A DNA stretch of 64,000 bases from a virus, in IMG/VR virus record IMGVR_UViG_3300026518_000008, positions 1 to 64,000 of that record. One strand, written 5' to 3'. A program made the position numbers and the translations under genes. Positions 26,865 to 56,404 of this stretch are shown here, piece by piece (within the stretch, counting starts at the first letter, position 1; each line of letters starts with the position of its first letter). The notes under the pieces are model-generated. The model did not search any database, was not told the origin of the DNA, and saw only the letters and a list, made by a program, of their open reading frames with translations.

Positions 26865-26939
26865 TGGCTGGGATGGAAGGTGTCGAACCTACACTTTACT
26901 GGATCAAAGCCAGTTGCACTGCCATTATGCTACATCCCA
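26865..26939 (-). tRNA. tRNA-Gln(TTG)
   Basis: TGGGATG/CATCCCA, ACTGG-CT TTG AT-CCAGT, GTTCGAC, GCCA. Confidence 0.9.
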
Positions 26940-26942
26940 ATA

Positions 26943-27027
26943 TGGAGGATATACTTGGACTTGAACCAAGATGAGTTTCACCTCGTCAGTTTAGCAAACT
27001 GATGCGATACCTTTACGCGATATATCC
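26943..27027 (-). tRNA. tRNA-Ser(GCT)
   Basis: GGATATA/TATATCC, TCAGT-TT GCT AA-ACTGA, long variable arm, GTTCAAG, CCA. Confidence 0.88.
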
Positions 27028-49332: not shown

Positions 49333-49407
49333 TTCCACACTATTTTTATATATCAACTGATGTATTTATTTATTAATATATCATTTTTTATATCAAAGGA
49401 CACATAT

Positions 49408-50472
49408 ATGTATTTAGTAAAATACTTTAAAGATGAGATAAGACGCAGATATTTTGTTGATAGTAATAACAATTATGCTGCAAATATGATAGTTGATGAG
49501 AGATGTATAGTTTCTACATTATATAGTAGAGATATGGTTCAAAGAGATCACTATGTTATATCAGAATGGTTTTCTAATAAATATGGAATTAGACAACTTC
49601 CATTCAAATTTATGCTTCAGACATTGAATATCAGTGATAAAAAACTAAAATCCCTGGTTCTTGCAGTGAAACGAAAAAGACTAGAATTTGTTTTTGCAGG
49701 ATTTGGAGGAACTGGTATGAATACTGCATATTGGTTACAGAAAATTCTTGACCATACAGGAGATGTATACTTATTTAATAGCGTACATGTTTACGATGAT
49801 GACGAGATTGAATTTTCAAATCTTTTTAGATTTCCACAGGATTTATCGTCATGTACAGAGAACAAGAAAGCATTTATGTATACTAATAAAAACTCACTTG
49901 GTAGAAAGTATTATAAAGTAGCAGATACAATTAAATTTGTAAATCCATCTATTGAATATAGATTTGCTAATGTAGAATTATTTGAACACACAGACTATAC
50001 ACATAGACTTTCGTTTGCAGACGATACTATTGTGTATGGAGCACCAGATCTTGCTACTCGAAAAGATGTTTCTCTTACTAATTGTAGATTCATAGCAGCT
50101 ACTCATGGGGGAAATTCTTGCTCTATGACAGTACAGCCAGACATTGATGAGAACTTACAGACAGAGGGATATGGTGTAATACACTTGAACACATTTTTCT
50201 GGAATCAACTCGCTATGGCTATTGGACTTTTAGAGTTCCTTGCGGAGGACGATATTCAACAGATAGAGACTACTGATATTAATTCAGATGGGACTCCTGT
50301 AATGAACCTTGATGGTACTACTTCTACAATACTTGCAGATGTGTCTAAATGGGATCAGGAAGGGCAAATATTTAAGTTCAGCTTTGAGGATTTTGTTGAC
50401 TCTGGTTCATTTGGTAAAGCTTCCAGAATTCTTGATTTTAATATTACTAAAGACAATGGAGGACGAGTATGA
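49408..50472 (+). CDS. ThiF/E1-like adenylyltransferase
   Basis: AGFGGTG, YDDDEIEFSNLFR, IVYGAPDLATR. Confidence 0.8.
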   Translation: MYLVKYFKDEIRRRYFVDSNNNYAANMIVDERCIVSTLYSRDMVQRDHYVISEWFSNKYGIRQLPFKFMLQTLNISDKKLKSLVLAVKRKRLEFVFAGFGGTGMNTAYWLQKILDHTGDVYLFNSVHVYDDDEIEFSNLFRFPQDLSSCTENKKAFMYTNKNSLGRKYYKVADTIKFVNPSIEYRFANVELFEHTDYTHRLSFADDTIVYGAPDLATRKDVSLTNCRFIAATHGGNSCSMTVQPDIDENLQTEGYGVIHLNTFFWNQLAMAIGLLEFLAEDDIQQIETTDINSDGTPVMNLDGTTSTILADVSKWDQEGQIFKFSFEDFVDSGSFGKASRILDFNITKDNGGRV

Positions 50473-51617
50473 TATCATTTCAAAAACAAACAAGCACAAT
50501 AGATCATGCTATCAAAAACACTGTTTTGGCTAAGTTAAATAGTGTTTTAGAGACATCTATGTCACATACAAATCCAGATTTATATAATCCATCATCTAGT
50601 CTTGGCAAATCATTGTATCCAGTAGATATGACGCATGGACTTAGTACAGAAATAGGAATGTGGAGCAATTCCATGAAAGACGAGAGTTCTGTGCTTATTG
50701 ATGCTATTGGTTCGGATACATTATCTTTTGGACCGGTTACACTGAGCGAGGGATTGTCATTGATAAAAAATGAAATTACTTCTGGAACTTTCTATGGTGT
50801 AGTAGCTGTTAATAGCTTGACAAATGAACGAATAAATCCACTACATCCACTGATTGCTAAAGAGATATCTGAGAACTGGGATATTTACAAGGATCAGAAG
50901 TTTAATTTTTATATCTTTTCTGGAAATTGGAGGGGAGACCCAGATGCTGACCTTGAGTTATACACAAATAGTATAGTGCAGCTTTTATCAGAATACGGAG
51001 AAAGACAACTAATTTCATATGTTTCATCTACACTTGCCGTTGTTAATAATGACATAGAGATACCTATAACATCAGATGAAAACGTTCAAGAAATATTGTA
51101 TAACTACATGGACGGAAAAAGCATAGAATTAGTAGATTCTACATTATTAAAATTACCGAATGGAAATTCGCCATATTTTATTGTACCAGTGCAAATTGTT
51201 AGCGACGGAATTGCTTATCCTTACTATGGAACTTCATTGTTGCAGCAAGACATTCGCAATAGTGAGGATAGTGAAACAGAAGATCTATGGGGTACAGATT
51301 TGTCACCTATGGGATCTGCAAATATTGGAAATAATACAACTAATCCGACAGCATCTGAATTTTTCTCTGTATGTACTGGAGGACATGGCGTCGACGATTA
51401 TGGTATGGCTACTATAAATCAGAGCAATCTTCAGTCTCCTATGAATTCTGAATGTTTATCTCCAGAATGGAGAGAATATGTAGCAGCTTGTCTCAACATT
51501 AGCTATGAGATATTTGACTCATTACTAGATTCCACTCCACAAAAAATACTTACTAGAGCAGATTTTGATACTATACCAGAATGGTTAGAACATTTATCTA
51601 CATTACATTTACATTAA
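50469..51617 (+). CDS. prokaryotic E2-like conjugating enzyme
   Basis: SANI...SVCTG then NLQSPMN resemble UBC HPNI...C and NxxSPxN; between E1 and JAB. Confidence 0.55.
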   Translation: MISFQKQTSTIDHAIKNTVLAKLNSVLETSMSHTNPDLYNPSSSLGKSLYPVDMTHGLSTEIGMWSNSMKDESSVLIDAIGSDTLSFGPVTLSEGLSLIKNEITSGTFYGVVAVNSLTNERINPLHPLIAKEISENWDIYKDQKFNFYIFSGNWRGDPDADLELYTNSIVQLLSEYGERQLISYVSSTLAVVNNDIEIPITSDENVQEILYNYMDGKSIELVDSTLLKLPNGNSPYFIVPVQIVSDGIAYPYYGTSLLQQDIRNSEDSETEDLWGTDLSPMGSANIGNNTTNPTASEFFSVCTGGHGVDDYGMATINQSNLQSPMNSECLSPEWREYVAACLNISYEIFDSLLDSTPQKILTRADFDTIPEWLEHLSTLHLH

Positions 51618-51629
51618 AGGATTGTACAC

Positions 51630-52913
51630 ATGGCTTATCATATAAATACATCTAGACACAACGCTACTCCAACTCAGAAGAATGCATCAGTTTGCTCTGT
51701 ACCAAAGTATGACTTTGTAGGAAAAATTCACACCACATCTACTGGTGATCTTTTTGGAGTGCTTTTACTACAGCAGGAAACTCTTGACGAGATATTCGAG
51801 CAGAGCGGACCACTTGCTGTATCGAATGAATTTCAGTTCCACTATACATCATTAGTTGGGAAACTTCAGAACCAGGGGCAGGAGCTCTATATTAGTATTC
51901 CACTTGTATGTTACAACTACAAACAGACGGTATCTGGAGCTCACATTGGATTCAACCTTGAGGACACTGAGACTATGTCAGATGATACTCTTGAGATCGC
52001 ACAGATGAAGGCTGCAGAATTTCTTAGTACAGATACTCGTACTCAGATAGAGTCTATCTTTGGAGAACTTGATTGGCATGTTGCTACACTACAGACTATG
52101 CACAGACATCCAGGAGGTTCATCTCAGGGATTCTCAAGTACAGATCTTATGACAGATCCAGACAGAGCTGGAATTGTATTTCCACTTAATGAGTCTATTG
52201 AGAAATCTATCAGTTTTTCATCTATTATGTATGTGCAGAATGGATCGTGTAGACTTGCTCATACTGAGGTTCGTACTGCACTTGGTTCAGCTTCAGAGAA
52301 GAGTGGAATACTATACAGCAATGGTAGATCTATTACTATTGTTGCTGGATATGATTCTACGCCTACAGAGCTTGATACTATGTTTGGCATACCTGGATAC
52401 ACATCTACAGATACTGTATATTTTGATGACATGCCTACCACTACAGATATACCTCAGCAACTTACATCTATAATGAGAGAGTCCTCTTTTAGGCCAGAGA
52501 TATTTATTGATGAAAATCATTTATCCACTGAGACTACTTACTATGGGAAGCAGAGAAAACCTTTGATTAAACAATCAGAATTTACAAAATCCACAGATAG
52601 CTTTCAAAATACTAACCAGCTGAGCTTATTTAGTAGAGGACTTGAAGATGACATCGTATTTGATCAAGATGAATTATATGAAGATTATATAGATCCATTA
52701 GATCAGGATTCATCTGGAATGTATACACAAAATCCATTTGAGCTTGATCATATGGACAGAGAGATACTTACAGATGCACTTAGAGATGAACTTGCAGATA
52801 TTACATATTGCGGAACCAAGAGTCATGTTTTCACAGAACGAGAGATTGCTCTCAAGCCTGAACATGAGATCTGGAGATTATCCAGAACTCACAAATTACT
52901 AAAACCACTATAG
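51630..52913 (+). CDS. JAB/MPN+ metallopeptidase
   Basis: NEFQ...QTVSGA...MHRHPGGSSQGFSSTD (E...HxH-x8-SxxD). Confidence 0.8.
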   Translation: MAYHINTSRHNATPTQKNASVCSVPKYDFVGKIHTTSTGDLFGVLLLQQETLDEIFEQSGPLAVSNEFQFHYTSLVGKLQNQGQELYISIPLVCYNYKQTVSGAHIGFNLEDTETMSDDTLEIAQMKAAEFLSTDTRTQIESIFGELDWHVATLQTMHRHPGGSSQGFSSTDLMTDPDRAGIVFPLNESIEKSISFSSIMYVQNGSCRLAHTEVRTALGSASEKSGILYSNGRSITIVAGYDSTPTELDTMFGIPGYTSTDTVYFDDMPTTTDIPQQLTSIMRESSFRPEIFIDENHLSTETTYYGKQRKPLIKQSEFTKSTDSFQNTNQLSLFSRGLEDDIVFDQDELYEDYIDPLDQDSSGMYTQNPFELDHMDREILTDALRDELADITYCGTKSHVFTEREIALKPEHEIWRLSRTHKLLKPL

Positions 52914-52923
52914 GACATATATT

Positions 52924-53814
52924 ATGGCTACAACATTTCAAACATTGTATGGTTCAGATGATTTGTTTTTTACACCAGAACACCAATTTGGTATACGACG
53001 TTCAGAATTAGCTGATGCAACATCTAATTCTGATACAACTACAGAAAATACATCTATTCCTGACCCAATTGATACTAACCAATCAGAACCAGGTGAGATG
53101 ATTCCGTATGACACTTCACGAGATATTACATCATTGATTACAGAATTTCATGATCATCATGACAGGCTAGAAGGTGATGCATATGTATTTGATGCAGAGA
53201 TGCTATCAAATACTAGACTCCAGAATTTCCTTATGACTATTGATCATAGGGCTAGACCAGAACAGAGAAAGATTACTATGCCAGATATGAGCAGAATTAT
53301 TGAGCATGGGCTATCTATGATTGTAGATGGATATGATCAACTTGAGTATAGAGACTGTTCTAAAGTATTTCATTTTAATAACGGAGATGTACTGCTCAGA
53401 GTATCTGGATTCATCAATAGAGCTACTGAAACTATTGAAATTATTCGTTATACGAAGAAATTCAAAGTAGACCGCATGATTGATGATGTCCAGGCAAGAC
53501 GAGTATTTGATTATTCGTTATATGCATCAGCATTTCTACTAGCATCAAGATATCCAGCTATTGGAACTATGATTAAAACAATTCATGAGCATTTTGGTGA
53601 ATTTCATATCACTGAGCATTTCCCGTATATATCCAGCAATAATACTATTGAGTCAATACTTGAGGCATATATATCTGATATCAATTCTGGAGAATTGCCA
53701 CCAGAGTGCGAGGACAAATGGACCACTCGGGCTGGAGTTAATTCTCGTTGTGAGAAATATTGTTCAGTTAAAGATATTTGTCCATTTTACACTCCTACTC
53801 ACGCTGGTTCTTAG
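52924..53814 (+). CDS. Cas4/PD-(D/E)XK-like protein with C-terminal Cys cluster, catalytic motif degenerate
   Basis: LPPEC...RCEKYCSVKDICPF. Confidence 0.5.
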   Translation: MATTFQTLYGSDDLFFTPEHQFGIRRSELADATSNSDTTTENTSIPDPIDTNQSEPGEMIPYDTSRDITSLITEFHDHHDRLEGDAYVFDAEMLSNTRLQNFLMTIDHRARPEQRKITMPDMSRIIEHGLSMIVDGYDQLEYRDCSKVFHFNNGDVLLRVSGFINRATETIEIIRYTKKFKVDRMIDDVQARRVFDYSLYASAFLLASRYPAIGTMIKTIHEHFGEFHITEHFPYISSNNTIESILEAYISDINSGELPPECEDKWTTRAGVNSRCEKYCSVKDICPFYTPTHAGS

Positions 53815-53820
53815 ATAGTA

Positions 53821-54256
53821 CAGCTGGGTGTCGTTTCAGTCGACTTCTTAAGTAGAAAGTGTTCTCCCCAGCACATGTATTAATTCATTTGCGAGATAAT
53901 ATTCGTATCCTGCTTAGTGTGCGTGGTAGATACACAGAGCATTTTTCCATTTGGCAACTATTTACCATTTGGAAGAACACTACAGAACCAGAGTGATGAT
54001 CATCCCACAGAGAACTCATAGGAGTTTTGTTTGGGTCGATTCATATCAGTCCCTCTAACCTTAGACAGGAAGAGAAAAGAATATGCGTGTTTAGTATCAG
54101 AATTTATGCGTTAAGAAAACTGAGATGTTAATTTGTGATATTGAGTTGTAACTGCAAAACAAAAATATTAATTGGGAATATTTATATTACTAGAACGAGT
54201 CAGTGTGGCATTGCGTCTACACATACAATTCTAGTCTCCAGAAAGATGCCCAGCTG
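53821..54256 (+). ncRNA. candidate large structured ncRNA (~435 nt)
   Basis: ends pair (CAGCTGGGTGTC-G-TTTC / GAAAGATGCCCAGCTG); several internal stems; no ORF. Confidence 0.6.
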
Positions 54257-54314
54257 GAGTAGCGATATGAGTCTATTTATATATACTTAGTATTCGCTAT
54301 ATATTTTTATATAT

Positions 54315-54392
54315 GTCTCAGCTAAACCCACACCTTATTTAAACATAGGATGGATAGCTTACTGGCAGTGCAAGTCTGTCCTGAGTACACCA
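54315..54392 (+). ncRNA. tRNA-like element without D arm
   Basis: GTCTCAG/CTGAG(T)AC acceptor, GGCAG-TGCAAGT-CTGTC T arm, ACCA end. Confidence 0.5.
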
Positions 54393-54546
54393 AAGTCTTA
54401 ATATATAATCTATTCTTGCAGAATACAGATACAACTAAACTGATTATATTTGTGGTAGTAGTATGCCGTGAGAATATAAAATATTGCCAATATTAATACT
54501 GCTATTAAGTTTTTAGTGTAACAACACGCCTATAACTATAGAACAT

Positions 54547-54656
54547 GAATCATTAGCTTACACATTGGTAAATCGGATCGGTATTTGTGGAACCAAGATT
54601 TCCTAAGGAGTGCATCCTTGTAGTTAAGACACTGGTTCGAGTCCAGTATGGTTCTC
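54547..54656 (+). ncRNA. enlarged tRNA-like element (His GTG-like loop)
   Basis: GAATCAT/ATGGTTC acceptor, ACTGG-TTCGAGT-CCAGT, extended anticodon arm, extra arm AAGGA-GTGCA-TCCTT, no encoded CCA. Confidence 0.55.
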
Positions 54657-54670
54657 TATAAACACTTTAT

Positions 54671-54702
54671 GTACCATTAGCTCAGTCTGGTAGAGCACTG
54701 TT
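54671..54702 (+). ncRNA. orphan tRNA 5' half
   Basis: GTACCAT-TA-GCTC-AGTCTGGTA-GAGC-A; does not pair with the adjacent CGGGCCC 3' end. Confidence 0.65.
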
Positions 54703-54709
54703 TCTATTA

Positions 54710-54869
54710 GTATAGAACGACGGTTCGAATCCGTCCGGGCCCACCATATGTGCCATTAAATTTGTATCGGTAGCATTATACGCGAGATAATTCGCAAAGG
54801 ACCAGAGTTCAATTCTCTGGATGGCACACCACATTAGGGCCCGTAGCATGAGCGGTTCATGCACTATAC
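54710..54869 (+). tRNA. circularly permuted tRNA-like gene 1 (3' half 54710-54746, 5' half 54837-54869)
   Basis: CGGGCCC-ACCA pairs 7/7 with downstream GGGCCCG; GTATAG pairs 6/6 with downstream CTATAC. Confidence 0.75.
54750..54831 (+). ncRNA. tRNA-like element nested in the linker of permuted gene 1
   Basis: GTGCCAT/ATGGCAC-ACCA, CAGAG-TTCAATT-CTCTG, non-canonical D and anticodon arms. Confidence 0.6.
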
Positions 54870-54925
54870 ATAATTTATTTTAAAAACCAGTGACTAGTAT
54901 ATACAATAGACTTAGCACCATAACC

Positions 54926-55005
54926 AAGTTTTAGGTCGGAAGTTCGAGTCTTCCATCGGGCGCCATTTATATGCCCGATTAGCTCAGTTGGTAGAGCAGA
55001 AATTT
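54926..55005 (+). tRNA. circularly permuted tRNA-like gene 2 (3' half 54926-54965, 5' half 54973-55005)
   Basis: ATCGGGC-GCCA, linker TTTATAT, GCCCGAT (7/7); canonical T and D arms; AAGTTTT pairs GAAATTT. Confidence 0.8.
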
Positions 55006-55015
55006 AAACATGAAT

Positions 55016-55058
55016 TACAGGGACAAATACGGTATATTTTGTCCCTGTACCTTTTTTT
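55016..55058 (+). terminator. intrinsic terminator closing the RNA locus
   Basis: TACAGGGACAAA/TTTGTCCCTGTA 12-bp stem, CC, T7. Confidence 0.75.
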
Positions 55059-55111
55059 AGAGAACTCACGGAGTTTTCTCAAATTAGGTACAGCACAATA
55101 AAGGAATTAGA

Positions 55112-56404
55112 ATGAGACAAGATATAGAGGAACGCATTAATGCTACTAAAGTTCCATACAAAATATATGCAGAGTTTGTCGAAGACAAAGCTGCAGAACA
55201 ATTTGCAAATTGCCTAGAGCAGGAGTCTGTAGTGCAAGGAGCTCTCATGCCAGACACACATGCCGGTTACGTTGCACCTATCGGTTCTGTACTAGCTACA
55301 AATGGTACTATTTTCCCATCTTTCGTTGGATACGACATCGGATGCGGCATGAGCTCTATCCGTACTAATATCCAATACAAATCAGTCTCAACAGAACAAC
55401 TAGAGGCTATTAAAAATCAGATTCTTAGAGATATTCCTATTGGTTTTGAGAGACATTCTAAACCTAAGACACATATCGTAGAAAGATTTCCTATGACACC
55501 TTTTGCAAAGGACGTGTTACGCACCACTGGTTCTTATCAGTTAGGCACACTTGGCGGAGGGAATCATTTCCTTGAAATAGGATATGACAATGACGAATAT
55601 TTAAATATAGTTGTTCACTCAGGTTCGCGTGGTGTTGGACATAAAATTGCCACTAAATATATGAAAGAGGCTGCAATTCAATCAGTAGACGAATCTAGAT
55701 ATAGAAAAGAATTTGATGAGAAAAATAAAGCTTGGCTAAATAAAATTTTAAACAGCAAATCATCTCCAGCTAATGACAAATTACAGGATAGATACGACAA
55801 AGCTAAAACTGAATTTACTTATCGTCGCACCAGAGCTAGAGTATCGAATATTGAGGATGCGTATCCATTAGATAACACATCAGAACCAGGGATGGGATAC
55901 ATGCAGGATATGAACATGGCATTGGAATTTGCTTTAGAGAATAGAGAGCTAATGATAGGTAGATCAGTAGCTGCTATTGCTAAAGTTCTTGGCCAGGATA
56001 TTTCTACTTCTCGCTTTATCAATCGAAATCATAACCATGCAGAACTAGTAGATGGTAGATGGATACATCGCAAGGGAGCCACTCAGGCTGCAGATGGTAT
56101 GATTGGAGTTATACCAGGAAACATGGTAGATGGCTCGTTCATAGTTAGATGTAGAGGTAGCTCAGATTCTATGAATTCATCATCTCATGGAGCAGGTAGA
56201 GTTTTATCTAGACGAAAAGCCAAGGATACTCTTGACCTAGAGGAGTTTATTTCTAGCACAGCTCACCTAATAGCGAACCATTCTGATTCAAACCTAGACG
56301 AATCTCCACTTGCATACAAAAATATTTTTGATGTAATGGAACAGCAGTCAGACTTGGTTAAGACACTAGACAGAATTGTACCAATTATAAACATTAAAGG
56401 GTGA
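55112..56404 (+). CDS. rtcB: RtcB RNA 3'-phosphate/5'-OH ligase
   Basis: MPDTHAG, VGYDIGCGM, LGTLGGGNHFLE, HSGSRG, HNH, HRKGAT, HGAGR, DESPLAYK. Confidence 0.96.
   Translation: MRQDIEERINATKVPYKIYAEFVEDKAAEQFANCLEQESVVQGALMPDTHAGYVAPIGSVLATNGTIFPSFVGYDIGCGMSSIRTNIQYKSVSTEQLEAIKNQILRDIPIGFERHSKPKTHIVERFPMTPFAKDVLRTTGSYQLGTLGGGNHFLEIGYDNDEYLNIVVHSGSRGVGHKIATKYMKEAAIQSVDESRYRKEFDEKNKAWLNKILNSKSSPANDKLQDRYDKAKTEFTYRRTRARVSNIEDAYPLDNTSEPGMGYMQDMNMALEFALENRELMIGRSVAAIAKVLGQDISTSRFINRNHNHAELVDGRWIHRKGATQAADGMIGVIPGNMVDGSFIVRCRGSSDSMNSSSHGAGRVLSRRKAKDTLDLEEFISSTAHLIANHSDSNLDESPLAYKNIFDVMEQQSDLVKTLDRIVPIINIKG

What the first reader, a model, noticed from the sequence alone, without database searches (positions are those of the whole stretch)
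53821..56404. Candidate new system: large ncRNA + array of permuted/aberrant tRNA-like RNAs + RtcB ligase
Seen: 1.25 kb without a credible ORF, holding in order a ~435 nt structured RNA, two aberrant tRNA-like elements, an orphan 5' half, two permuted tRNAs (one with a nested element), a terminator and rtcB. None is a canonical tRNA, unlike the 26.8 kb cluster, yet acceptor, T and D arms are intact while anticodons are absent or distorted. Established: RtcB joins 2',3'-cyclic-P and 5'-OH ends; permuted tRNAs are known from algae and an archaeon; YrlA Y RNAs have T-acceptor-D order and occur in rsr-yrl-rtcB operons. No Ro60/Rsr is in this window. Inference, three models: (a) RtcB seals anticodon loops to make mature tRNAs; (b) RNase P and 3' trimming give pieces 54671-54746, 54837-54965 and 54973 onward, each with halves of different tRNAs, pairing into a domain-swapped chain of chargeable anticodon-less mimics or decoys against anticodon nucleases; (c) Ro-independent Y-like RNAs.
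Basis: partly seen in the sequence, partly recalled or inferred. Interest (0 to 1): 0.93.

Follow-up and report, generated by a model that had tools for sequence, protein, structure and literature searches.

The report
Chained tRNA-mimic RNA beside phage RtcB
Just upstream of its RNA-repair ligase gene, this phage has a gene-free stretch that encodes a folded RNA made of several anticodon-less, back-to-front tRNA look-alikes; these resemble bacterial Y RNAs, but neither of the protein partners usually found next to such RNAs is present.

Summary
Window 53815-55111 has no ORF over 51 aa and no canonical tRNA. It holds five perfect T arms, three D arms and several 7-bp acceptor stems. Two of those stems pair 7/7 only in the order T arm, acceptor, D arm. 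One of the two encloses a nested tRNA-like element. The unconstrained minimum-energy fold recovers almost all of these helices.

The best reading is a non-coding RNA chain of YrlA-type tRNA mimics. They are not tRNA genes awaiting ligation, and they are not simple debris of a tRNA cluster.

The genome record (about 85% complete) has no Ro60/TROVE, no Ro60-type vWA domain and no DUF7873.

This scan has seen the same kind of RNA many times on other DNA, beside Ro60-like or DUF7873 genes. I re-verified both settings. I also found a covarying twin-module RNA in Sulfurovum genomes that shares an operator-like sequence with rtcB and has no Ro60.

Function is inferred: a tRNA decoy or platform tied to RNA repair.

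Verdict: a new variant of a known kind, of moderate to high interest.

The parts
53821..54256 (+). 436-nt structured RNA domain closed by a terminal stem (53821-53832 with 54245-54256). No Rfam family matches it.
   Evidence: z -4.17 on +, -2.2 on -; no relevant Rfam hit; I2
54009..54030 (+). 7-bp hairpin AGAACUC/GAGUUUU, copy 1. The same hairpin recurs at 55059-55079, just before rtcB.
   Evidence: (D11)
54315..54392 (+). tRNA-like element F: acceptor with one bulge, T arm 54364-54380 with the atypical loop UGCAAGU, 3' end ACCA.
   Evidence: read directly
54530..54590 (+). Degenerate paralogue fragments: a copy of the hp(B) hairpin followed by a 5'-half-like piece. This shows past duplication and decay within the array.
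   Evidence: D3, D4, D5
54591..54696 (+). Element A and module 1: variable-arm-like hairpin 54605-54619, T arm 54631-54647, acceptor 54648-54654 / 54671-54677 (6 of 7 pairs, 16-nt loop, no CCA), D arm 54680-54696. This is the weakest module.
   Evidence: (YrlA 30 bits). The MFE fold replaces it with an alternative.
54702..54717 (+). hp(B): 6-bp hairpin with a 4-nt loop, in the position of an anticodon arm between D(B) and T(B). It competes with a possible 6-bp closure 54710-54715 / 54864-54869.
54719..54862 (+). Module 2, a permuted tRNA mimic: T arm 54719-54735, acceptor 3' strand plus ACCA 54736-54746, 5' strand 54837-54843 (7/7), D arm 54846-54862.
   Evidence: helices recovered in the unconstrained MFE fold
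54750..54831 (+). Nested tRNA-like element C inside the acceptor loop of module 2: acceptor 7/7, T arm 54803-54819, ACCA end, aberrant D and anticodon regions.
   Evidence: DUF7873-linked RNAs also have acceptor loops of 73-88 nt.
54938..54997 (+). Module 3, a compact permuted tRNA mimic: T arm, acceptor 3' strand plus GCCA, 7-nt linker, 5' strand (7/7), U8 A9, canonical D arm.
   Evidence: (YrlA 33.9 bits, E 3.2e-5)
54999..55018 (+). hp(E): hairpin with a 4-nt loop directly after A26 of the last D arm, an anticodon-arm analogue. Its 5' strand can instead pair with 54929-54933 or with 54596-54602, which would close the whole array.
55016..55058 (+). Intrinsic terminator: 12-bp perfect stem, 10-nt loop, U run.
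   Evidence: (I7)
55059..55079 (+). Hairpin copy 2, lying between the terminator and the rtcB start codon.
55112..56404 (+). rtcB, RNA 3'-phosphate/5'-OH ligase, 430 aa.

Best explanation
The gap encodes non-coding RNA, not tRNA genes. From about 54590 to the terminator at 55058 it is a chain of anticodon-less tRNA mimics of the YrlA (bacterial Y RNA) type.

Each module is a T arm stacked on a 7-bp acceptor helix. The acceptor is closed by a loop, or in module 2 by a nested tRNA-like element. It is followed by U8-A9, a D arm and a short hairpin where the anticodon arm would be. Because modules follow each other directly, the stretch between two acceptors looks like a tRNA whose two acceptor strands belong to its neighbours.

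Shown: the helices, their canonical spacing, the retained NCCA ends, the absence of decodable anticodon loops, and the absence of Ro60 and DUF7873 from this record.

Inferred: the RNA is transcribed with, or just after, the upstream genes and ends at the terminator. Its top halves are recognised by tRNA-handling factors. Modules 2 and 3 are probably cut by RNase P and keep CCA, as M. smegmatis YrlA does, which would leave pieces held together by base pairing.

Most likely role: a tRNA decoy or platform working in the same RNA-damage and repair setting as the neighbouring RtcB, independently of Ro60.
For: (1) Structure. There are five perfect 5-bp T stems, four of them with canonical T loops, and three perfect D stems. 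The acceptors of modules 2 and 3 and of element C pair 7/7. The unconstrained MFE fold of 54585-55060 (-140.0 kcal/mol, z -4.4) recovers D(B), hp(B), T(B), the module 2 acceptor with nested C, D(D), T(D), the module 3 acceptor, D(E) and the terminator.

(2) Rarity. The permuted pairing is absent from 240 other RtcB loci and from 124 of 125 ordinary tRNA junctions.

(3) Co-adjusted strands. The module 2 and module 3 acceptors share the core GCCCG/CGGGC but are offset by 2 nt on both strands. Each 3' strand therefore matches the following 5' strand, not the 5' strand of its own tRNA-sized unit (read).

(4) Uneven preservation. Top halves are intact while all anticodon regions are aberrant. This is not what neutral decay would give.

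(5) The same design elsewhere:
- L335:6668 has a T arm, 7 nt, GCCA, AT, 7 nt and a D arm, inside four Y-like units directly after a Ro60-like gene (PF25045 7.9e-19, TROVE 2.1e-7).
- DUF7873 (PF25283) genes are followed by two such modules 165-230 nt apart, with acceptor loops up to 88 nt. Here the spacing is 219 nt.
- The Sulfurovum twin-module RNA has 12 of 36 pairs compensatory and 97% of cells paired. Its promoter/operator sequence recurs upstream of rtcB. No TROVE was found in those three genomes.

(6) Precedent. A 7-bp acceptor YrlA is cut by RNase P and carries CCA (PMC4201824).
Against: - No orthologue of this array could be examined, so there is no covariation for it. Flanking proteins have no IMG/VR relatives. 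There is no DNA match in INPHARED or in 401 Campylobacterales genomes, where the only hits were ordinary tRNA junctions.
- There are no expression or processing data.
- Module 1 is weak: 6 of 7 pairs, and it is displaced in the MFE fold.
- Internal paralogue fragments at 54530-54590 show that part of the region is decaying.
- YrlA hits score 30-34 bits against a gathering score of 69. Chen et al. note that tandem tRNAs also hit that model.
- The record is only about 85% complete, so a partner gene could lie in the missing part.
- RtcB adjacency may be no more than the usual placement of phage rtcB among tRNA genes.
Confidence: 0.6

Rival explanations
1. Debris of a former tRNA gene cluster. 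Duplications, deletions and recombination between conserved D and T boxes left non-functional hybrids and halves.
For: Phage rtcB often sits in or next to tRNA clusters: 16 of 42 loci checked have tRNAs within 4 kb, as does Privateer. Orphan tRNA 5' halves occur beside ORFs in L015. Internal paralogue fragments at 54530-54590 show duplication and decay. No orthologue evidence for selection is available.
Against: Debris does not predict two independent 7/7 acceptor matches in the 3'-then-5' order with canonical spacing to the T stem, U8-A9 and NCCA. It does not predict 25 of 25 intact T-stem pairs alongside uniformly lost anticodon loops. It does not predict the co-ordinated 2-nt register shift on both strands of modules 2 and 3. 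Nothing like this appeared in 240 RtcB loci or 124 sampled junctions.
Confidence: 0.17
2. True circularly permuted tRNA genes. The halves are joined, with RtcB sealing the anticodon loop, to give decoding tRNAs, as in Cyanidioschyzon merolae.
For: The 3' half precedes the 5' half and the acceptors are perfect. Possible closure stems exist at 54710-54715 / 54864-54869 and 54929-54933 / 54999-55003. An RtcB ligase gene is adjacent.
Against: No 7-nt anticodon loop with U33 can be formed from the flanks (read). Local hairpins with 4-nt loops occupy the anticodon-arm position. No bulge-helix-bulge motif or splicing endonuclease was seen in 68 ORFs scanned. No self-cleaving ribozyme hit was found in Rfam. 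The homologous designs elsewhere are anticodon-less ncRNAs. ARAGORN's intron mode only joins 54671..54965, with a 5 of 7 acceptor.
Confidence: 0.04
3. The same RNA, but its working form is a multi-piece particle. RNase P and 3' trimming release 54671-54746, 54750-54831, 54837-54965 and 54973 onward. These stay joined through swapped acceptor helices and expose several CCA ends, serving as bait for enzymes or toxins that act on tRNA 3' ends.
For: The acceptors are 7 bp long and each is followed by NCCA and a 3-7 nt spacer, like a packed tRNA array. The leader TAT precedes three of the 5' strands (D1). M. smegmatis YrlA is processed in exactly this way and its halves stay bound (PMC4201824).
Against: There are no processing data. 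Salmonella and Deinococcus Y RNAs are not cleaved. Modules in L335 and Sulfurovum cap the acceptor with GAAA or 4-5 nt loops and lack CCA, so cleavage is not general to the class.
Confidence: 0.19

Closest known systems
YrlA bacterial and phage Y RNAs bound by Ro60/Rsr (Rfam RF02553; Chen et al. 2014, PMC4201824), especially M. smegmatis YrlA
   Same: tRNA-like domain in the order T arm, loop-closed acceptor, D arm. The 7-bp acceptor with CCA matches the M. smegmatis type. Both can occur in tandem. In Salmonella the RNA lies in one operon with rtcB.
   Different: Scores are 30-34 bits against a gathering score of 69. There is no GNCGAAN0-1G Ro-binding motif. No Ro60/TROVE or vWA_Ro60 was found in the genome record. 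Modules are chained directly, with local hairpins rather than a long 5'/3' stem. One acceptor loop holds a nested tRNA-like element.
Two-headed tRNA-mimic RNAs downstream of DUF7873 (PF25283). Known only from earlier notes of this scan; re-verified here on L246 and L381-L399.
   Same: Two permuted, anticodon-less modules about 165-230 nt apart (219 nt here). The second module often keeps NCCA. Acceptor loops can be large, up to 88 nt. They occur in phage tRNA regions.
   Different: No DUF7873 gene in this genome record. The first module here lacks the Leu-type D arm seen in most of those RNAs. No repeated hexamer tract was found.
Sulfurovum twin-module RNA beside a WYL regulator
   Same: No Ro60 and, in the one genome checked (G001), no DUF7873. 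Modules are directly chained, with D arm 1 separated from T arm 2 by 13-18 nt, giving a pseudo-tRNA middle unit like 54671-54746 here. The last D arm is followed by a local hairpin. It is linked to rtcB, and that RtcB is 47-49% identical to the phage's.
   Different: Acceptors are capped by 4-6 nt loops without CCA. There is no sequence homology beyond tRNA-conserved positions. The link to rtcB there is a shared operator, whereas here it is adjacency only.
Circularly permuted tRNA genes of Cyanidioschyzon merolae and relatives (from established literature)
   Same: The 3' half is encoded upstream of the 5' half, with a perfect acceptor.
   Different: Those genes yield decoding tRNAs through a circular intermediate made by splicing endonuclease and ligase. 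Here there is no anticodon loop, no bulge-helix-bulge motif and a bacterial host setting.
Two-piece (permuted) tmRNA (Rfam RF04321)
   Same: A T arm, acceptor 3' strand and CCA lie upstream of the acceptor 5' strand.
   Different: The hit scores 23 bits against a gathering score of 47. ARAGORN calls nothing at its default setting. At lowered thresholds it gives only implausible tags.

Membership tests
YrlA (Rfam RF02553) | Covariance-model score at or above the gathering score (69 bits) | tested here: not met
   33.9 bits (54930-55002) and 30.0 bits (54628-54696). Only model positions 23-86 of 114 aligned.
YrlA (Rfam RF02553) | tRNA-like domain in the order T arm, acceptor-like stem-loop, D arm | tested here: met
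   Modules 2 and 3 pair 7/7 and module 1 pairs 6/7. The helices appear in the MFE fold.
YrlA (Rfam RF02553) | 5' GNCGAAN0-1G motif / Ro60-binding helix | tested here: not met
   No match in 53815-55111.
YrlA (Rfam RF02553) | Encoded within about 4 kb of a Ro60/TROVE gene on the same strand | tested here: not met
   No TROVE, no vWA_Ro60 and no match to the L335 Ro60-like protein in the 93-kb record. The record is about 85% complete.
Canonical tRNA | Cloverleaf with a 7-nt anticodon loop, detected by ARAGORN or the Rfam tRNA model | tested here: not met
Permuted tRNA gene (decoding) | 3' half upstream of the 5' half, with a complementary acceptor | tested here: met
Permuted tRNA gene (decoding) | Ends that can be joined into a normal anticodon stem-loop, plus processing signals for that join | tested here: not met
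   No U33-containing 7-nt loop can be formed. Hairpins with 4-nt loops occupy the position. No ribozyme or bulge-helix-bulge motif was found.
Two-piece tmRNA (RF04321) | Gathering score and a plausible tag reading frame | tested here: not met
   23 bits against 47. ARAGORN finds nothing at default and only odd tags at -ps80.
DUF7873-linked two-headed RNA (scan-internal class) | Lies just downstream of a DUF7873 (PF25283) gene | tested here: not met
   The upstream gene is Cas4/PD-(D/E)XK-like. No PF25283 in the record.
DUF7873-linked two-headed RNA (scan-internal class) | Two permuted anticodon-less tRNA-like modules 165-230 nt apart in one RNA | tested here: met
   T arms at 54719 and 54938, 219 nt apart. 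Compare.
RtcB (PF01139) | Full-length match to the family profile | tested here: met
   E 4.7e-81; phrog_1075 E 3.6e-104.

The most novel reading that the evidence does not exclude
A Ro60-independent RNA-repair accessory. RNase P cuts the phage RNA chain into pieces that stay joined through swapped acceptor helices. The result is a multi-headed, CCA-ended, anticodon-less tRNA decoy. It would soak up host anti-phage enzymes that attack or sense tRNA, or present damaged ends to the adjacent RtcB. The Sulfurovum rtcB-regulon twin RNA would be the cellular counterpart.
Probability: 0.12. Interest if true: 0.85.

Novelty: new variant of a known kind. Interest (0 to 1): 0.62.

Why it matters
Y RNAs with tRNA-like domains are described only as partners of Ro60. 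This locus, together with the Sulfurovum RNA that shares an operator with rtcB, indicates that the same tRNA-mimic design is used without Ro60 and close to RtcB. That points to a broader and unexplained role for tRNA mimicry in RNA damage and repair during phage-host conflict.

The chained layout is also structurally unusual. Each tRNA-sized unit borrows its acceptor strands from its neighbours, and one acceptor loop holds another tRNA-like element. The layout gives concrete, testable predictions for RNase P processing and particle assembly.

Tried and rejected
The contigs of the close RtcB relatives (P0001 98%, P0002/P0003 70%, P0004-P0023 58-68% identical) could not be read. The listing of cluster members returned no accession numbers.
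- The single metagenome scan chose generic RtcB peptides and returned only relatives of 46% identity or less.
- The genome-contig scan gave cellular RtcBs of 48% identity or less, mostly Campylobacterota.
- The flanking proteins have no IMG/VR relatives. The gap has no DNA match in INPHARED.
- Two IMG/VR pattern scans were mis-specified by one N and wasted. The corrected scan is.
- BLAST of the gap against all fetched loci found only D-arm boxes. Against 401 Campylobacterales genomes it found only ordinary tRNA-Asp/Lys junctions.
- A covariance model of modules was not built, because MAFFT misaligned the acceptor strands. I used a purpose-written scanner with reversed-sequence controls instead.
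- Rejected: ARAGORN's 'tRNA-Cys with a 197-nt intron' (acceptor 5 of 7), permuted tmRNA, and a shared hexamer tract with DUF7873-linked RNAs.
- Burroughs and Aravind 2016 and the Sim et al. 2020 review were not held in the library.
Full report
SETTING

The window is the first 64 kb of a 93,163-bp IMG/VR virus record, estimated 85% complete. Gene content marks it as an SU10-like podophage. It has an SU10 portal and adaptor, ribonucleotide reductase, Thy1 and rIIA/rIIB-like genes.

The finding lies in a 1297-nt gap (53815-55111). Upstream is a 296-aa gene that the protein atlas places with Cas4/PD-(D/E)XK nucleases. Downstream is rtcB (Pfam E 4.7e-81). The gap's only ORFs are 45-51 aa.

THE OBSERVATION

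ARAGORN finds only two tRNAs in the whole genome, at 26865-27027. Rfam finds nothing in the gap at gathering score.

In E-value mode the only meaningful hits are sub-threshold. YrlA scores 33.9 bits at 54930-55002 and 30.0 bits at 54628-54696, against a gathering score of 69. Permuted tmRNA scores 23 bits against 47.

Read directly, with coordinates fixed, the gap holds:
- five perfect 5-bp T stems, four with canonical T loops;
- three perfect D arms;
- acceptor strands each followed by NCCA.

Two acceptor helices pair 7/7 only in the order T arm, 3' strand, linker, 5' strand, D arm:
- Module 2 is 54719-54862. Its 94-nt acceptor loop contains a further tRNA-like element, 54750-54831, with its own 7/7 acceptor and ACCA end.
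- Module 3 is 54938-54997, with an 11-nt loop.

A third module, 54631-54696, pairs 6/7. A 12-bp terminator hairpin with a U run follows at 55016-55058.

Upstream, 53821-54256 folds as a closed 436-nt domain. Its z-score is -4.17 on the + strand and -2.2 on the - strand.

The unconstrained minimum-energy fold of 54585-55060 (-140.0 kcal/mol, z -4.4) recovers nearly all proposed helices. It also adds a long-range stem, 54596-54602 with 54999-55005, that would close the whole array.

IS IT MORE THAN CHANCE OR DECAY?

A scanner for T arm, 7 nt, linker, complementary 7 nt, NN, D arm found 7/7 cases only in this array among 240 RtcB loci (1.85 Mb). The single other hit was two ordinary paralogous tRNA-Pro genes in L088. 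The reversed-sequence control gave 0.

In 125 ordinary-looking junctions sampled from IMG/VR with a generic pattern, acceptor complementarity was mostly 2-4 of 7. The one 7/7 case was a true Y-RNA module.

The module 2 and module 3 acceptors share a GCCCG/CGGGC core but are shifted by 2 nt on both strands. Each 3' strand therefore matches the next 5' strand perfectly and its own unit's 5' strand only partly. That is what selection on the permuted pairing predicts.

Top halves are intact throughout, while every anticodon region is aberrant.

Against this, paralogous fragments at 54530-54590 show that parts of the region have duplicated and decayed. Module 1 is weak.

WHAT KIND OF THING IS IT?

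The design is that of the tRNA-like domain of YrlA Y RNAs (PMC4201824). In M. smegmatis, YrlA has a 7-bp acceptor, is cut by RNase P and carries CCA, and its two halves stay bound. The same paper warns that tandem tRNAs also hit the YrlA model. The sub-threshold hits therefore count only together with the complementarity.

Membership of YrlA fails on three of four features:
- the score is below gathering;
- the Ro-binding motif is absent;
- no Ro60 gene is present: no TROVE, no vWA_Ro60 and no match to a phage Ro60-like protein.

Earlier notes of this scan report the same kind of RNA many times on other DNA, beside Ro60-like genes or beside DUF7873. I tested both leads.
- L335, a 190-kb phage, has a Ro60-like gene (PF25045 7.9e-19, TROVE 2.1e-7). 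It is followed by four Y-like units, one with exactly the module 3 layout including GCCA.
- L246 and 18 further IMG/VR loci carry DUF7873 (PF25283, 1.4e-69). Most are followed by two permuted modules 165-230 nt apart, with acceptor loops up to 88 nt.

The present genome record has no DUF7873. It also lacks a shared hexamer tract.

A THIRD SETTING FOUND HERE

The closest cellular RtcBs are in Campylobacterota. In Sulfurovum locus L205, a WYL-HTH regulator gene is followed by an RNA of about 300 nt with two directly chained permuted modules.

Its promoter region shares an operator-like sequence and -10 box with the region just upstream of rtcB. That sequence is also found upstream of rtcB in several related loci.

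Homologues in two further genomes show 12 of 36 pairs compensatory, with 97% of cells paired. None of the three genomes has TROVE, and the one checked has no DUF7873. These are metagenome-assembled genomes, so absence is not proven.

Its middle unit runs 5' acceptor strand, D arm, short hairpin, T arm, 3' strand of the next acceptor. This is the same pseudo-tRNA arrangement as 54671-54746 here. Its last D arm is followed by a covarying local hairpin, like 54999-55018 here.

This supports two points. The hairpin after each D arm is the anticodon-arm analogue. A functional link between RtcB and Ro60-less tRNA mimics exists somewhere in nature.

For the phage itself the link rests on adjacency only. 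Phage rtcB often sits among tRNA genes, in 16 of 42 loci checked.

MECHANISM

Shown: the structure and topology.

Inferred: one transcript ending at 55058. RNase P cleaves at the 5' strands of the 7-bp acceptors, three of which are preceded by TAT (D1). The encoded CCA is retained. The resulting tRNA top halves lack anticodons and act as a decoy or platform in RNA damage and repair.

No ribozyme, bulge-helix-bulge motif or splicing endonuclease was seen.

LIMITS

There are no expression data.

VERDICT

This is a real, unusual tRNA-mimic RNA array: a new variant of the YrlA-type kind, without either known partner gene. Its function is unproven.

Noticed in passing
L205:230-1476 (- strand) and L205:3899-3932; homologues L401, L402, L426: In Sulfurovum metagenome-assembled genomes, a WYL-HTH-WCX regulator gene is followed by a covarying twin permuted tRNA-like RNA. 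Its promoter/operator sequence recurs just upstream of rtcB. No TROVE was found in the three genomes.
   Followed up: partly
L335:4712-7030: A 190-kb phage has a Ro60-like gene (vWA_Ro60 plus TROVE) followed by four Y-like units of about 140 nt. Each has a repeated GAATGC...TACA[AT]T segment and a permuted tRNA-like module.
   Followed up: partly
L264:3916-4200: A single YrlA-like RNA with its own sigma-70-like promoter and a long terminal stem lies inside a phage tRNA cluster. No Ro60 or DUF7873 was found among five neighbouring ORFs checked by Pfam.
   Followed up: partly
window 54009-54030 and 55059-55079: Two copies of one 7-bp hairpin (AGAACUC/GAGUUUU). One lies inside the 436-nt RNA. The other lies between the terminator and the rtcB start. 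This may be a shared regulatory or processing site.
   Followed up: partly
whole genome G000, not localised (among the ORFs scanned): A bAvd-like protein (PF22296, 7.5e-22) and an Mtd second domain (PF21916, 1.5e-16) suggest a diversity-generating retroelement. No reverse transcriptase appeared among the ORFs scanned.
   Followed up: no
L015:2843-5008 and L015:1472-1500, 1787-1810: The RtcB of a 235-kb phage is a 721-aa ORF with an insertion right after the GYDIGC active-site motif, which looks like an intein. Orphan tRNA 5' halves lie directly in front of small ORFs in its tRNA cluster.
   Followed up: no
L027:3083-3415: A phage-encoded tmRNA (tag AKTSVLMAA) lies about 600 nt upstream of rtcB.
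   Followed up: no
window 52924-53814 and 49360-52913: The gene just upstream of the RNA is Cas4/PD-(D/E)XK-like, with a C-terminal Cys cluster. Further upstream lie the E1/E2/JAB-like genes noted by other readers. None of them hit Pfam at E 0.001 or better.
   Followed up: partly
L391 and L070 (the same 169-kb IMG/VR contig): One phage carries both an rtcB embedded in a large tRNA array and, about 100 kb away, a DUF7873 gene with a permuted tRNA-like module downstream.
   Followed up: no
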